Source of the DNA: Escherichia coli
Lineage (GTDB): Bacteria; Pseudomonadota; Gammaproteobacteria; Enterobacterales; Enterobacteriaceae
DNA length: 64,000 bases
Reading direction: 5' to 3' (one strand)
Assembly (NCBI RefSeq): GCF_030384885.1
Contig: NZ_CP128613.1
The translations under genes and the position numbers were made by a program. Below are positions 49,155-60,205 of this stretch, in pieces. Below the pieces are notes generated by a model, which was not told the origin of the DNA, did not search any database, and saw only the letters and a program-made list of their open reading frames with translations. The number at the start of each line of letters is the position of its first letter. Position 1 is the stretch's first letter.

Positions 49155-50084
49155 TTAGAGAACGCTGAACAAATTCAACTCACTCACCTTCGAGTAAGTC
49201 TTGAGGGTAGCTTCCATTGCCACTTCCAGTCCGGTAAAGGTGATCGACGCCGGGCCGTAATCGAGATCCTGCAATGAACCAATCAACTCATCATTAGAGG
49301 TAGAGATATCGGTCTGCGCATCGCTCAGCATCGACATGGTGTTTTGTGTCTCGCCGAGCGACGCAATCGAGGCGTTGAGGTCGTCCGAGGCGGTGTCCAC
49401 CACATTAACGGCGTTTTGAATATCGCTTTGTACCTGCGGATCTGCCGGGTCAACGTTAGGGTTTTGCAACTCCTGCGACAGGGCATTGAGCGTGTTGAGC
49501 ACATCTAAATTGCTGCCAAAGAAATCGCTCGCCGCCACGTTGGTGTCTACTTCGACGCCGTTCGACACCGTAGTCTGGCGATGGTCGCTGTTACCCTGAT
49601 AGCTGTAGCGATCGGTCACGCCATCACCGTCATCGTCCACCGCCACAATCGGCGGTTGATCGTTGATAGTGCCGCCAAAGACGTAATGCCCGTCTTCATC
49701 CTGATAGTTGAGCGCCGCCACCATCGATTCGGTTAGCGACTCAATATCCTGACCGAGGCTTGCCAGCGAATCGGCGGTATTGGTGCCGTTCGCTGCTTCC
49801 AGCAGGTCGTCGCGCACCGCCAGCAGGCTGTTGTTGACGCCATCAAGAATGGATTCCTGCTGGCTTAAGCCCGCCGACGCGGAGTCGATATTGCTCTGAT
49901 ACTGCTCAATCGCCGACTGCTGGCGGTTCAACTGGGTGATACGTGTGGCGGCGATAGGATCATCCGATGGCTGCAAAATTTCCTTGCCGGTTGCCATCTG
50001 CTCGACCACGTGCGCCAGTTCGCCAGAAAGATTATTAAAACTTTGCGTCATCGAGACGTAGGTTTGTTGGGTGGTTACTCGCAT
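49155..50084 (-). CDS. lfgL: flagellar hook-associated protein 3 (lateral system)
   Basis: FlgL-like N-terminus from MRVTTQQ; flagellin-type terminal helices. Confidence 0.8.
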   Translation of the reverse strand: MRVTTQQTYVSMTQSFNNLSGELAHVVEQMATGKEILQPSDDPIAATRITQLNRQQSAIEQYQSNIDSASAGLSQQESILDGVNNSLLAVRDDLLEAANGTNTADSLASLGQDIESLTESMVAALNYQDEDGHYVFGGTINDQPPIVAVDDDGDGVTDRYSYQGNSDHRQTTVSNGVEVDTNVAASDFFGSNLDVLNTLNALSQELQNPNVDPADPQVQSDIQNAVNVVDTASDDLNASIASLGETQNTMSMLSDAQTDISTSNDELIGSLQDLDYGPASITFTGLEVAMEATLKTYSKVSELNLFSVL

Positions 50085-50098
50085 TTTCGCGCTCCCGC

Positions 50099-51475
50099 TT
50101 AGCTGCACATTTCCAGCACCGAATCAAAAATCTCGGCCCCGGCGGAAATGACTTTCAGATTGGCTTCATAAATTTGTTGATAGGTGATCAGGTTCACCGC
50201 CTCTTCGTCCATGCTGACGCCGCTGACGCTGCTCTGCTGGTTTTGCGCCTCAGAATAGACATTGGACGCAGCGGTCACTTCGGTCTGGTTTTGCTGAGTG
50301 TAAATGCCAATATTGCTGATGATCGACGAGCACGCTTGCCCGACCGTCACGCTGCCGAGGTTGGCTATCTCCAGCGGCTCAGTGGAGATGTTGATCAGCG
50401 CCTGCAGGTTGTCGCTGTTGCCGCTTTCGTCCGGCGAACTGGAGAACGCCAGTTCATCGGCGGTGATATCCGGGTTAACGGTCAGCGGGCCATCGGCATT
50501 ACTGGCATCGTAAATAAACAGCGGCTCGCCGGGGTTACCGTTGAGATCATAGCCCTGCGCCAGCTGATTGTTGACCGCATCGGCGAACTGCGACGCCATG
50601 CTGTTGATGGTGTCGGTCAGCGGCGTCAGCACGTCGTTTTGATAATCAAAAAGTGCGCCTAATGAACCGCCGGTATCGGTGGTCATGGTCGAGGTCGTTC
50701 CGGCAAAGGTCAGTGTCATCGTTGGCGTGCCATCGGCGTTGGTTTCCAGCGCGATGGTCGAACTTTGCTGCCCGCTCACCAGCGGCTGACCGTTTTGCAG
50801 GGTGACGTTGTAGTTGCCCTGGTCGTCGATATTGACCTGCACATCCATCATTCCGCTGAGTTCTTCCACCATCTGATCACGAGCGTCATACAGCGCGGAG
50901 GCGTTATCACCGTTGGCTTCGGCCTGGGCGATTTGCTGGTTATAGCTGGCGATGCCGCTGGTGAGCGTATTGATTTGCGACACCATCGCCTGCTGCTGGC
51001 TGATGATTTCTGTGCTTTGCGAGTCGATGTAATCGAGCGTGTTATCGATACGCAACGACAGCGCCCCGGCTTCGCTGATCACCTGCTCGCGCAGGGCAGA
51101 ATCATCGGGGCTGGTGGTCGCTTCGTTGAGGGCCGCGAAAAAGTTATCGAACCCGCCGCTCAGGCTACTGTTATCGTCGCTCAATACCGCTTCCAGTTGC
51201 GTGAGATACCCTTGCTGGGTGTTGTAATAGCCGTAATCGCTGGCGGCATACCACACCTGATTCACCTGATACTGGTTGGAGACGCGACGAATGCTGTCCA
51301 CCTGTACACCGTTTCCGGCGCTGTTCGGCGAACCGCCGCTGGCACCGATGGTGCTGATCTCCGCCACCTGGCGGGTGTAGCCCGTGGTCATGGCGTTAGC
51401 GGTGTTTTGCGCCGTGACGTTCAGCTCCACCTGCGCCGTTGATGCGCCGCTGTAGCCGATGTTAATCATGTCCAT
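50099..51475 (-). CDS. lfgK: flagellar hook-associated protein 1 (lateral system)
   Basis: 458-aa ORF; FlgK-like N-terminus ..AQNTANAMTTGYTRQ.. Confidence 0.85.
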   Translation of the reverse strand: MDMINIGYSGASTAQVELNVTAQNTANAMTTGYTRQVAEISTIGASGGSPNSAGNGVQVDSIRRVSNQYQVNQVWYAASDYGYYNTQQGYLTQLEAVLSDDNSSLSGGFDNFFAALNEATTSPDDSALREQVISEAGALSLRIDNTLDYIDSQSTEIISQQQAMVSQINTLTSGIASYNQQIAQAEANGDNASALYDARDQMVEELSGMMDVQVNIDDQGNYNVTLQNGQPLVSGQQSSTIALETNADGTPTMTLTFAGTTSTMTTDTGGSLGALFDYQNDVLTPLTDTINSMASQFADAVNNQLAQGYDLNGNPGEPLFIYDASNADGPLTVNPDITADELAFSSSPDESGNSDNLQALINISTEPLEIANLGSVTVGQACSSIISNIGIYTQQNQTEVTAASNVYSEAQNQQSSVSGVSMDEEAVNLITYQQIYEANLKVISAGAEIFDSVLEMCS

Positions 51476-51544
51476 GTTGGATCCTTACCGGTAAATCGTG
51501 CCGGATAAAAGCGGCGTGAAGTTGGGGATTCTTAAGTTCCGTAA

Positions 51545-51895
51545 ACCGGGCGCCACACGCCGGATGCAGCCTGCATACGGGCACAAACATAAAAATATGT
51601 GCGAACTCGTAGGCCTGATAAGACGCGTCAGCGTCGCATCAGGCGTTGTGCACCGATAGCCGGATGCGGCGTAAACGCCTTATCCGGCCTACAAACGGGC
51701 ACACCCATAAAAACAGGCGCGGACCCGTAGGCCTGATAAGACGCGTCAGCGTCGCATCAGGCACCGTGCACCGATCGCCGGATGCGGTGTGAACGCCTTA
51801 TCCGGCCTACATACAGGCGCAAACATAAAAATATGTGCGGACTCGTAGGCCTGATAAGACGAGACAGCGTCGCATCAGGCACCGAACGTCGGAGC
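51545..51895. repeat. BIME cluster of REP elements
   Basis: Multiple alternating copies of GCCGGATGCGGCGTGAACGCCTTATCCGGCCTAC and GTAGGCCTGATAAGACGCG.CAGCGTCGCATCAGGC. Confidence 0.8.
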
Positions 51896-51896
51896 C

Positions 51897-58641: not shown

Positions 58642-58670
58642 ATTTTTAAGTGACTGATGAGAAAGGGTTT

Positions 58671-59408
58671 ATGAGTTTTCAATTTTGCAGGCGGAAGTTG
58701 TATTTCCTCCTGGCGCTGGCCTTACCGGGCTACGCCGCCGTCCATCCCGTGCAACATAGCGCGCGGGAACAAGTCAACGCCCAGGTGCTGAATGCCGCGA
58801 GCCAGCAGATTGAATCGCTGGCGCAACAGCGGCAGTGGCATGACTATCGCTACACCTTTAAGGTCTACATTCCCTCGCAGATTGCGACCGCCGCGCCCTG
58901 CGCTACGGCCCCCGGCGTCACGCTGACTTCGCCTGCGGAAATCGCTCTCAACCGGATGAACTTCACCGTCAGTTGCCCGCAAAGCTGGCAGATGAACGTT
59001 GCGGTGCGCCCGGATGTTCTGGTGCCGGTGGTGATGGCGAAGTCACTGGTTGCCCGCGATACGCCGCTCACGGCAAATGATGTGGAGCTGAAGCCCTACA
59101 ACGTCAGCGCCCAGCGGCGGGATGTGCTGATGGATCTCAATGAAGCGATTGGTTTAAGCAGCAAACATGCCCTGCAACCAGGCAGGCCGCTTACCAAAGA
59201 AGAACTGGTTTCGCCAGTGCTGATCGAGCGCGATCAGCCGGTGATGATTGTTTACCAGAGCGCGGGGATCACCGCCTCGATGCCCGGCGTGGCGCTGAAA
59301 AATGGTCGCAAAGGGGAAATGGTGAAAGTACGTAACGCCAGCAGTCAGCGGGTCATTAGCGCAATAGTGGCGGAAAGCGGCGTGGTGACAACGGTAAGCG
59401 CGGAGTAA
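58671..59408 (+). CDS. lfgA: flagellar P-ring assembly chaperone
   Basis: FlgA-like ORF, signal peptide from internal Met; divergent from lfgB. Confidence 0.75.
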   Translation: MSFQFCRRKLYFLLALALPGYAAVHPVQHSAREQVNAQVLNAASQQIESLAQQRQWHDYRYTFKVYIPSQIATAAPCATAPGVTLTSPAEIALNRMNFTVSCPQSWQMNVAVRPDVLVPVVMAKSLVARDTPLTANDVELKPYNVSAQRRDVLMDLNEAIGLSSKHALQPGRPLTKEELVSPVLIERDQPVMIVYQSAGITASMPGVALKNGRKGEMVKVRNASSQRVISAIVAESGVVTTVSAE

Positions 59409-59488
59409 TTTACGCAGGCGATTAAAGTTTTGCCGCCTGTTAACCGCTTTACCGGAGTAACACACCTTCAAACAGAGACGAGGTTGCG

Positions 59489-59764
59489 ATGAAAATCACC
59501 CCGACTATGCCAGGCAATCGCCCGACAGCCACAACGGCAGGCTCCAGCCAGCCGCGCAAAACTACGGCGACCACCACGACGCTCAGCGCCGACGACATTA
59601 CCCAGGCGGGATTGCAGTCTGCCCAGCAAACGCTGAACGACCAGCAAGAGAGCGATATCGACAGCGATAAAGTGGCGCAAATGCAGGCGATGCTGGCGTC
59701 CGGCAGCCTGCAAGTGGACACCGAACAGTTAGCCAGCGACATGCTGAGTTTTTTCCAGAACTAA
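59489..59764 (+). CDS. lfgM: anti-sigma-28 factor FlgM-like
   Basis: 91-aa ORF, Thr/Gln-rich, C-terminal amphipathic helix pattern. Confidence 0.7.
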   Translation: MKITPTMPGNRPTATTAGSSQPRKTTATTTTLSADDITQAGLQSAQQTLNDQQESDIDSDKVAQMQAMLASGSLQVDTEQLASDMLSFFQN

Positions 59765-59776
59765 GAGGCCGATGAA

Positions 59777-60205
59777 GTGAGTATCCGGTTACAACAGGTG
59801 AAGGCGTTGTTGCAGGGAATTCGTGACGACGACGCACTGTACGATTCCCTGCGCGAACTTCTCCAGCGTCAGCGGATCTGCATGATTCGCCGCGCCAGTG
59901 AAGAGTTGATGGCGGTAAACGACGAGATAACGCAGCACTATGAGCAGTTGCATGGGCATAGCCATCAGCGGCACAGCCTGCTGCAACTGCTGGGTGTCAG
60001 CGTAAATCGTGACGGTCTGGCGCAGGTGTTTGCCTGGCTTCCGGCGGTACAAAAAGCGGCAGCACAACAGTTGTGGCAACGCCTGGAGCAAAAAACGGAA
60101 CGCTGCAAAGCCTATAACGATAAAAACGGCGAGCTGTTGATTCGTCAGTATGAATTTATTCAGTCTTTTTTAGGCAGCGAAGCGGATTTTCTGTATCAGG
60201 AATAA
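59777..60205 (+). CDS. lfgN: FlgN-like export chaperone
   Basis: 142-aa ORF, GTG start, follows lfgM. Confidence 0.65.
   Translation: MSIRLQQVKALLQGIRDDDALYDSLRELLQRQRICMIRRASEELMAVNDEITQHYEQLHGHSHQRHSLLQLLGVSVNRDGLAQVFAWLPAVQKAAAQQLWQRLEQKTERCKAYNDKNGELLIRQYEFIQSFLGSEADFLYQE

What the first reader, a model, noticed from the sequence alone, without database searches (positions are those of the whole stretch)
49155..60205. Complete lateral-type hook/basal-body gene set without a filament gene in the window
lfgN, M, A, then B through L are all apparently intact (no frameshifts seen) under a sigma-54 promoter, despite loss of the adjacent filament/motor cluster. Intact ORFs after loss of partner genes suggest either recent deletion or an alternative use of the hook-basal body.
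Basis: inference. Interest (0 to 1): 0.4.

Follow-up and report, generated by a model that had tools for sequence, protein, structure and literature searches.

The report
Recently truncated E. coli second-flagellum locus
This is the known Flag-2 second-flagellum locus of Escherichia coli, in a rare strain that very recently lost its filament, motor and sigma-factor genes in one 9.1-kb deletion, so the intact hook and basal-body genes are leftovers that have had no time to decay.

Summary
Window 49155-60205 carries all 14 genes of Flag-2 cluster 2 (lfgNMA on +, lfgB-L on -). Each is full length and ungapped against orthologues. A perfect sigma-54 consensus lies 37 nt upstream of lfgB. No flagellin gene is in the window.

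The lost neighbour cluster is now mapped. A 9,111-bp deletion with 5-bp microhomology (TCACC, 48757-48761) runs from inside lafW to inside lafU. It removes lafZ, lafA (flagellin), lafB-F, lafS (sigma-28) and lafT, and leaves an in-frame LafW'-'LafU fusion ORF (48560-49138).

A sister assembly with the whole laf cluster is 100.000% identical to the window over 11,328 bp (48757-60084). The fusion protein occurs in only 6 public contigs, while the exact LfgL protein occurs in 219 index blocks, and all four distinct neighbourhoods shown for those carry the complete laf cluster. dN/dS of 0.046 against a distant strain reflects selection before the deletion.

Near-identical strains carry two other Flag-2 lesions: a whole-locus scar and an lfgK nonsense mutation. 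Partial Flag-2 loci are already documented (PMC6993521). This is ordinary gene-cluster decay. I could not read the lfi/lfh cluster in a deletion-bearing genome.

The parts
48560..49138 (-). In-frame fusion ORF (192 aa): LafW residues 1-127 joined to about the last 66 residues of LafU. This is the scar of the deletion.
   Evidence: residues 126-183 match the C-terminal end of the LafU model. The exact protein is found in only 6 public contigs.
48757..48761 (.). Deletion junction with the 5-bp microhomology TCACC. 9,111 bp are missing relative to the intact sister L011.
   Evidence: Three-way comparison of the window with the lafU side and the lafW side of L011.
49155..51475 (-). lfgK and lfgL (hook-filament junction proteins). 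lafW followed 16 bp downstream and was probably co-transcribed.
51506..51535 (-). Candidate LafS (sigma-28-type) promoter upstream of lfgK: TTAAGAATC-N12-CCGCTTTTA.
   Evidence: The motif is shared with the lfgM and lafA upstream regions and is conserved in strains about 94% identical. This is an inference, not tested.
51476..51896 (.). REP/BIME array between lfgJ and lfgK, with a 118-bp tandem duplication.
   Evidence: Sequence read; self-matches. It is one of several intergenic repeats in the query that I take to be the source of the ~160,000 short hits in E. coli genomes.
51897..58589 (-). lfgBCDEFGHIJ operon: rod, hook cap, hook, L ring, P ring and the rod-binding FlgJ-like protein.
   Evidence: All genes are full length.
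58626..58641 (-). Sigma-54 promoter consensus TGGCACAGCGATTGCT upstream of lfgB.
   Evidence: It is the only perfect match in the window and is conserved.
58671..59408 (+). lfgA (P-ring assembly chaperone).
59422..59451 (+). Candidate LafS (sigma-28-type) promoter upstream of lfgM: TTAAAGTTT-N13-CCGCTTTA.
   Evidence: The motif is invariant while the sequence downstream of it varies between strains. This is an inference.
59489..60205 (+). lfgM (anti-sigma factor, whose partner LafS is now deleted) and lfgN (chaperone of LfgK/L).
60227..60297 (+). Sigma-54-like promoter CGGCACGCTTATTGCA with the upstream element GGAAAC..TTTCCGCC, ahead of the flagellin-modification genes.
   Evidence: The same layout precedes lafB in L011.
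60332..63923 (+). Flag-2 variable region 1 cargo: a FliB-like flagellin lysine-N-methylase (60332-61261) and an 823-aa glycosyltransferase (61452-63923). Both have lost their substrate, the flagellin.
   Evidence: PMC6993521.
46985..48489 (-). yafP and dinB, the conserved chromosomal flank of Flag-2 on the lafU side.

Best explanation
The region is cluster 2 (lfgNMABCDEFGHIJKL) of the known enterobacterial Flag-2 (lateral-type) flagellar locus. It sits in a rare sub-clone of a small divergent lineage labelled E. coli. This sub-clone lost cluster 3 in a single 9,111-bp microhomology-mediated deletion.

Shown: the deletion runs from codon 128 of lafW to about 66 codons before the end of lafU. 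It removes lafZ, the flagellin gene lafA, lafB (cap), lafC/D (chaperones), lafE (hook-length control), lafF, lafS (sigma-28) and lafT, and truncates the stator gene lafU. Also shown: it is so recent that the remaining genes carry no change at all relative to sisters that still have the whole locus. The intact reading frames therefore reflect lack of time, not retention by selection.

Inferred from the Vibrio parahaemolyticus lateral-flagellum hierarchy and the promoter motifs: if lafK and the lfi/lfh genes beyond the window are intact, as in identical sisters, LafK and sigma-54 could still transcribe lfgB-J and the methylase/glycosyltransferase operon. The sigma-28-type promoters before lfgKL and lfgMN have lost their sigma factor. 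Without LafE, LafA, LafB and the stators, the most the cell could build is a non-rotating, filament-less basal body with a hook of uncontrolled length. The expected fate is further decay or loss of the locus.
For: Identity and synteny with annotated Flag-2 loci. Junction and length of the deletion. No laf gene other than the two fragments is in the window. 0 differences in 11,328 bp against L011, which has lafW-lafU intact. 0 differences in 12,549 bp against L008, which has lfiJ-lfiR intact. Sister L016 carries lfhB and lfhA at full length. The fusion protein is in 6 contigs from at least 4 samples, so it is real but rare. The exact LfgL protein is in 219 blocks; the 23 contigs read gave four distinct neighbourhoods, and all four carry the full laf cluster. 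None of 5,426 complete E. coli genomes has this junction. The same clone shows two other independent lesions: the lfhA'-'lafU scar in 2013C-4282 and an lfgK nonsense mutation in L012. Long-term purifying selection before the event: dN/dS 0.046 over 13 lfg genes. Partial loci with en bloc cluster loss are documented, with 22% of Flag-2 loci lacking at least one core gene (PMC6993521). The LafK/sigma-54 then sigma-28 hierarchy is described in PMC4481668. Promoter motifs.
Against: The part of the locus right of the window could not be read in a genome that carries the deletion. I only know that the 77-kb contig of GCA_017755465.1 continues about 22 kb past the window's end. No expression data were available. 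The promoter assignments rest on consensus matches and conservation. Zero substitutions also means that selection on the remnant can be neither shown nor excluded.
Confidence: 0.9

Rival explanations
1. The filament-less hook-basal body and its type III export gate are retained for another use, such as protein secretion or an envelope structure, as proposed for the flagellin-less basal bodies of Buchnera (recalled from memory).
For: All 14 lfg genes are intact. The sigma-54 promoter is intact. The lfi/lfh genes are intact in identical sisters. The deletion allele has been sampled in at least 4 independent datasets, so the clone is viable and circulating.
Against: There are zero substitutions since the deletion, so there is no evidence of retention. 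The deletion also removes lafE (hook-length control and the substrate switch) and lafS. Sister strains inactivate the locus in other ways, including a stop codon in lfgK and complete loss, which argues against a valuable basal-body function in this clone.
Confidence: 0.04
2. The missing laf cluster is an assembly artefact, a collapsed or mis-joined contig, and the strain really has a complete Flag-2 locus.
For: The window comes from an unknown assembly. REP arrays occur in the locus.
Against: The same junction and the same 192-aa fusion ORF occur in an NCBI assembly (100% identical over 20,579 bp) and in Logan assemblies of three other sequencing runs. The junction lies in unique coding sequence with only 5 bp of homology, not in a repeat.
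Confidence: 0.02
3. The lfg genes were re-acquired by recombination into a background that had already lost Flag-2, so the window shows a partial regain rather than a partial loss.
For: The left flank is 99.99% identical to 2013C-4282, which carries the full-locus scar.
Against: The window keeps only 202 bp of lafU, whereas the scar allele keeps 786 bp. The junction joins lafU to lafW at a 5-bp microhomology, which is the signature of a deletion and not of a homologous import. About 200 index blocks hold sisters with the complete, identical locus.
Confidence: 0.03

Closest known systems
Flag-2 locus of E. coli 042 and other Enterobacterales (first described in E. coli 042; surveyed by De Maayer et al. 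2020, PMC6993521)
   Same: Same genes, order and orientation for cluster 2 (lfgNMA / lfgB-L). Same chromosomal site next to dinB-yafP. Same variable region 1 cargo (FliB-like methylase and glycosyltransferase). 94-97% nucleotide identity to annotated E. coli loci.
   Different: Cluster 3 (lafWZABCDEFSTU) is reduced to a LafW'-'LafU fusion by a 9,111-bp deletion. None of 5,426 complete RefSeq E. coli genomes has this junction.
The K-12-type Flag-2 scar (lfhA'-'lafU pseudogene pair)
   Same: It is also an en bloc deletion with one end inside lafU. It occurs in a near-identical sister strain, 2013C-4282.
   Different: The K-12 scar removes all three clusters and joins lafU to lfhA, keeping 786 bp of lafU. 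The window's deletion removes only cluster 3, joins lafU to lafW, keeps 202 bp of lafU and uses a different microhomology.
[quoted passage not shown]
   Same: One functional block of the locus is lost en bloc while the other blocks stay intact.
   Different: A different cluster is lost, in a different genus. That paper names transposition as a major driver, whereas this junction shows only a 5-bp microhomology and no IS element.
Lateral flagellar system of Vibrio parahaemolyticus and Aeromonas hydrophila
   Same: Homologous gene set, with a LafK/sigma-54 then sigma-28 hierarchy (PMC4481668). The window has a sigma-54 consensus before lfgB and sigma-28-like motifs before lfgK and lfgM.
   Different: Those systems are complete and drive swarming. 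Here the flagellin, cap, hook-length control, sigma-28 and stator genes are gone.

Membership tests
Enterobacterial Flag-2 locus, cluster 2 (lfgNMABCDEFGHIJKL) | Fourteen flg-type genes in the order N-M-A, divergent from B-C-D-E-F-G-H-I-J-K-L | tested here: met
   Full-length ungapped tblastn matches to every annotated orthologue of strain YA-1. Synteny with L001 and L002. Pfam and NCBIfam assignments.
Enterobacterial Flag-2 locus, cluster 2 (lfgNMABCDEFGHIJKL) | Chromosomal position between the dinB-yafP side and the yafL side | tested here: met
   dinB and yafP lie directly left of the scar. The right boundary is outside the window but is present in sister L016, which is 100% identical over its 1,465-bp overlap with the window (62536-64000).
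Complete Flag-2 locus (39 conserved genes, PMC6993521) | Cluster 3 lafWZABCDEFSTU present, including the flagellin gene lafA | tested here: not met
   Only LafW residues 1-127 and about the last 66 residues of LafU remain. The other nine proteins give no hit in the window. 9,111 bp are missing relative to L011.
Complete Flag-2 locus (39 conserved genes, PMC6993521) | [quoted passage not shown] | not testable with these tools
   It lies beyond the window's right edge. It is intact in L008 and L016, which are 99.98-100% identical sisters. I could not retrieve that part of a deletion-bearing contig.
Complete Flag-2 locus (39 conserved genes, PMC6993521) | Sigma-54 (LafK-dependent) promoter before the hook-basal-body operon | tested here: met
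   A perfect TGGCAC-N5-TTGCT lies 37 nt upstream of lfgB and is the only perfect match in the window. It is conserved. Activity was not tested.
K-12-type Flag-2 scar | A junction that fuses the lfhA and lafU fragments | tested here: not met
   The window's junction fuses lafW to lafU at a different lafU position.
Filament-less flagellar basal bodies kept for another function (Buchnera-type, from memory) | Long-term retention of hook, basal-body and export genes under purifying selection after loss of the flagellin | tested here: not met
   Zero substitutions separate the window from sisters with the flagellin gene. There has been no post-loss period over which retention could be seen.
Filament-less flagellar basal bodies kept for another function (Buchnera-type, from memory) | Basal bodies actually assembled or expressed | not testable with these tools
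   This needs RNA-seq, proteomics or electron cryotomography of a deletion strain.

The most novel reading that the evidence does not exclude
In this sub-clone the remaining Flag-2 genes (lfg in the window, plus lfi/lfh and lafK beyond it) are still expressed from their sigma-54 promoters. They would build a filament-less, stator-less basal body with an uncontrolled hook that acts as a secretion conduit or surface structure, and the clean in-frame removal of cluster 3 would be tolerated or favoured for that reason.
Probability: 0.03. Interest if true: 0.6.

Novelty: new member of a known kind. Interest (0 to 1): 0.12.

Why it matters
It matters little in itself. It adds one more precisely mapped deletion allele to the already documented pattern of piecemeal loss of the Flag-2 secondary flagellar locus in Escherichia. 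It also shows that intact ORFs next to a deletion need no functional explanation when identical sisters still carry the whole locus.

The context is mildly useful. One clone shows three independent ways of inactivating Flag-2: loss of cluster 3, an lfgK stop codon, and the whole-locus scar. The whole-locus scar has exactly the K-12 junction but lineage-specific flanks. This gives a natural series for asking whether Flag-2 is being selected against, and whether the classical scar arises recurrently.

Tried and rejected
1. dN/dS as a test of relaxed selection. Over 13 lfg genes against YA-1 it is 0.046. I rejected it as a test because the closest intact sister has no differences at all, so the signal is entirely pre-deletion.

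2. Reading the lfi/lfh cluster in a deletion-bearing genome. The exact-protein look-ups return the longest contigs and collapse similar neighbourhoods, so only intact sisters came back. I then tried to infer collinearity from the ends of the 77-kb contig of GCA_017755465.1. Its left end maps into a LysR-type regulator gene in the window, not into a repeat, so I dropped that argument.

3. The sigma-54 pattern with up to 2 mismatches is not enriched in the window: 31 matches against 42.7 expected. Only the perfect match and the well-positioned one-mismatch match are used.

4. The sigma-70 and terminator consensus scan of 48400-61500 gave nothing above shuffled expectation near the operon starts.

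5. The exact-protein look-ups had already supplied identical sisters.

6. The roughly 160,000 short matches of the region in E. coli genomes looked like a mobile element. They turned out to be REP/BIME and GC-rich palindromic intergenic repeats.
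Full report
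**What is there**

The window is chromosomal DNA of an Escherichia strain labelled E. coli. Window 36311-48489 holds proA, proB, phoE, crl, frsA, gpt, pepD, prfH, an rtcB-family gene, yafP and dinB. These are collinear with annotated E. coli genomes.

The strain belongs to a small divergent lineage. Over proA-pepD, 18 of 5,426 complete genomes are 98.6-100% identical and all the others are at most 96.3%. The best match is strain 2013C-4282. I suspect this lineage is one of the 'cryptic clade' groups of Escherichia, but I did not test that.

Right of dinB lies the Flag-2 (lateral-type, secondary) flagellar locus, at 94-97% nucleotide identity to annotated loci.

**Check of the observation**

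- The proteins annotated in strain YA-1 align to the window from first to last residue at 93.5-100% identity. There is no frameshift and no internal stop. The only indel is one codon in lfgM.
- PGAP names, Pfam hits on record for identical proteins and NCBIfam agree on FlgA, B, C, D, E, F, G, H, I, a short rod-binding FlgJ, K, L and M; FlgN is called by PGAP and Pfam only (no NCBIfam family hit it).
- The only perfect match to TGGCAC-N5-TTGCW in the whole window is at 58641-58626 on the minus strand, 37 nt upstream of the lfgB start. By my arithmetic, about 0.06 perfect matches are expected in 128 kb of two strands. The GG and GC elements are conserved in strains about 94% identical.
- No flagellin gene is in the window.

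The MS-ring, C-ring, export-gate and LafK genes lie outside the window, and the hook-length gene lafE was in the lost segment. The set in the window is therefore the complete lfg cluster rather than everything a hook-basal body needs.

**The lost neighbour cluster**

In complete loci the order is dinB, lafU, lafT, lafS, lafF, lafE, lafD, lafC, lafB, lafA, lafZ, lafW, lfgL. In the window, dinB is followed by a 192-aa ORF (48560-49138) and then by lfgL.

I compared the window with L011 (GCA_049984605.1), which has the whole laf cluster. The window equals the lafU side up to 48761 and the lafW side from 48757. The two sides share the pentanucleotide TCACC, and 9,111 bp are missing.

- 9,111 is a multiple of three and both genes are on the same strand, so the scar is an in-frame fusion. 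It joins LafW residues 1-127 to about the last 66 residues of LafU.
- No IS element sits at the junction.
- A 5-bp microhomology is the usual signature of illegitimate recombination or replication slippage. That mechanism is an inference.

The deletion removes the regulator lafZ, the flagellin lafA, the cap lafB, the chaperones lafC and lafD, the hook-length controller lafE, lafF, the sigma-28 gene lafS and the stator gene lafT. It also truncates lafU and lafW.

**Is the deletion real, and how old is it?**

The fusion protein, as an exact sequence, is encoded on 6 public contigs. These are a 77-kb contig of NCBI assembly GCA_017755465.1 and Logan assemblies of several sequencing runs. All are 100% identical to the window where they overlap. 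The deletion is therefore not an assembly artefact.

It is rare.

- None of 5,426 complete RefSeq E. coli genomes spans the junction.
- The exact LfgL protein is listed in 219 index blocks and the exact glycosyltransferase in 200.
- For LfgL, 23 contigs were read; the four distinct neighbourhoods shown (17 further places were collapsed as similar) all carry the complete laf cluster.

It is also very young.

- L011 has zero differences from the window over 11,328 bp (48757-60084).
- L008 has zero differences over 12,549 bp (51452-64000).

Given commonly quoted E. coli substitution rates of a few times 10^-7 per site per year (from memory), this bounds the age only loosely. It is compatible with anything from the present to a few centuries.

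The lfg genes are intact because there has been no time for them to change.

dN/dS for 13 lfg genes against strain YA-1 is 0.046, with dS 0.23. That is in the same low range as the flanking housekeeping genes (0.007-0.018), though above it. It shows that the locus was under strong purifying selection over the long term. All of that signal predates the deletion, so it says nothing about the remnant.

**What lies beyond the right edge**

In the identical sisters, the glycosyltransferase is followed by a cytidylyltransferase-like gene, then lfiJ, I, H, G, F and E, lafK, lfiM, N, P, Q and R, lfhB and lfhA. All have full-length products. Next come hicAB and yafL.

I could not retrieve this stretch from a genome that carries the deletion. 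I know only that the 77-kb contig continues about 22 kb past the position equivalent to the window's end.

**How the remnant most likely behaves (inference)**

In the Vibrio parahaemolyticus model, LafK with sigma-54 drives the class II lateral genes. These include the sigma-28 gene, which in turn drives class III (PMC4481668). The window's promoter motifs fit that model.

- There is a sigma-54 consensus before lfgB.
- A one-mismatch sigma-54 site lies before the FliB-like methylase (60282-60297). Its upstream element, GGAAAC..TTTCCGCC, is repeated before lafB in the intact sister.
- A conserved sigma-28-like motif (TTAAR...CCGCTTTA) lies before lfgK and lfgM and, in the sister, before lafA.

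If lafK and the export genes are intact, the rod, ring and hook genes could still be transcribed. lfgKL, the fusion ORF and lfgMN have lost their sigma factor, unless the primary-flagellum FliA substitutes for it. Without LafE, LafA, LafB and stators, the best possible product is a non-rotating basal body with a hook of uncontrolled length. LfgM, the methylase and the glycosyltransferase have lost their partners or substrate.

**Context that argues for decay rather than a new use**

Three independent lesions occur in near-identical backgrounds.

- The window has the cluster-3 deletion.
- L012 (GCA_051841085.1) has a C-to-A change that makes a stop at lfgK codon 382, while its laf cluster is intact.
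- 2013C-4282 has lost the whole locus, leaving the lfhA'-'lafU scar. Its left flank is 99.99% identical to the window over 12.6 kb.

Partial Flag-2 loci are already described. 22% of 592 loci lack at least one core gene, and whole clusters are missing in some Yersinia and Citrobacter strains (PMC6993521). The window adds one more allele to that pattern.

**Comparison and verdict**

The gene set is a member of Flag-2 cluster 2. Order, orientation, position and promoter were all tested and met. The locus fails the test for a complete Flag-2 locus because cluster 3 is absent. Its scar is not the K-12-type scar, because the partner gene and the lafU breakpoint both differ.

The 'basal body kept for another function' reading is not excluded in principle, but nothing supports it. 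Its defining feature, retention over time after loss of the flagellin, is not present here. I rate the finding as an ordinary, well-explained case: a new member of a known kind, of low interest.

Noticed in passing
L003 (E. coli 2013C-4282) 13473-21864, compared with L011, L016 and L025 (K-12): 2013C-4282 carries the classical whole-locus lfhA'-'lafU scar at exactly the same nucleotide as K-12. Its flanks are lineage-type: 0 of 956 bp and 1 of about 7,440 bp differ from sisters with an intact locus, while K-12 differs at several bases next to the junction. Only about 3 bp of perfect homology (8 of 11 imperfect) lie at the joint. The 'ancestral' scar therefore seems either to arise recurrently at one spot or to spread by recombination.
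   Followed up: partly
L012 (GCA_051841085.1) position 9755, equivalent to window lfgK codon 382: A sister assembly with an intact laf cluster has a single C-to-A change that creates a stop codon in lfgK. This is a third independent way of inactivating Flag-2 in the same clone.
   Followed up: yes
window 48560-49138 (-): The deletion left an in-frame 192-aa LafW(1-127)::LafU(C-terminal ~66 aa) fusion ORF, 16 bp downstream of lfgL. It is probably co-transcribed with lfgKL. I presume it has no function, but it keeps the N-terminal region of a putative exported hook-associated protein.
   Followed up: partly
window 51476-51896, 54966-55143, 54037-54160, 61280-61400: The intergenic gaps inside the flagellar operons are filled with REP/BIME arrays, including a 118-bp tandem duplication between lfgJ and lfgK. 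They also hold GC-rich palindromic repeats that look BoxC-like (from memory). Their number and position differ between strains (L001 and L002), and they caused about 160,000 short hits across E. coli genomes.
   Followed up: partly
window 60227-60297 (+) and L011 14395-14485: The FliB-like flagellin methylase / glycosyltransferase operon has a sigma-54-like promoter (CGGCACGCTTATTGCA) and an upstream GGAAAC..TTTCCGCC element. The region before lafB has nearly the same layout. This suggests the flagellin-modification cargo genes are wired into the LafK regulon.
   Followed up: partly
window 59422-59451 (+), 51506-51535 (-); L011 13240-13270: A conserved sigma-28-like motif (TTAAR-N-CCGCTTTA / TCGTTTTTA) precedes lfgM, lfgK and lafA. 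It stays invariant where neighbouring bases vary between strains. It is a candidate LafS promoter consensus for E. coli Flag-2.
   Followed up: partly
window 22912-36104: A 13.2-kb degraded lambdoid prophage sits next to tRNA-Thr(CGU) (thrW, 36121-36196) and is absent from the otherwise near-identical strain 2013C-4282. It has an integrase, antiterminator Q, Rz, small and large terminase subunits and a portal protein. It also has an odd 199-aa ORF (25215-25814) that joins a DNA-circularisation N-terminal domain to a resolvase/invertase.
   Followed up: partly
window 61452-63923 (+): The Flag-2 glycosyltransferase is 823 aa here, against 814 aa in strains YA-1 and 2020CK-00188. The C-terminal end differs because the stop codon is in a different place.
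   Followed up: no
window 1992-6245 (-) and 13922-20763 (+): A 1,417-aa inverse autotransporter (intimin/invasin family, EaeH-like) and a six-gene pilus operon occupy the left part of the window. The operon has a LuxR-type regulator and a CS1/TcfC-type usher, and it looks like the ecp/mat operon. They are ordinary E. coli adhesin loci unrelated to the finding.
   Followed up: no
L003 12535-13589 (2013C-4282 dinB): dinB is annotated as frameshifted in 2013C-4282 but is intact (351 aa) in the window.
   Followed up: no
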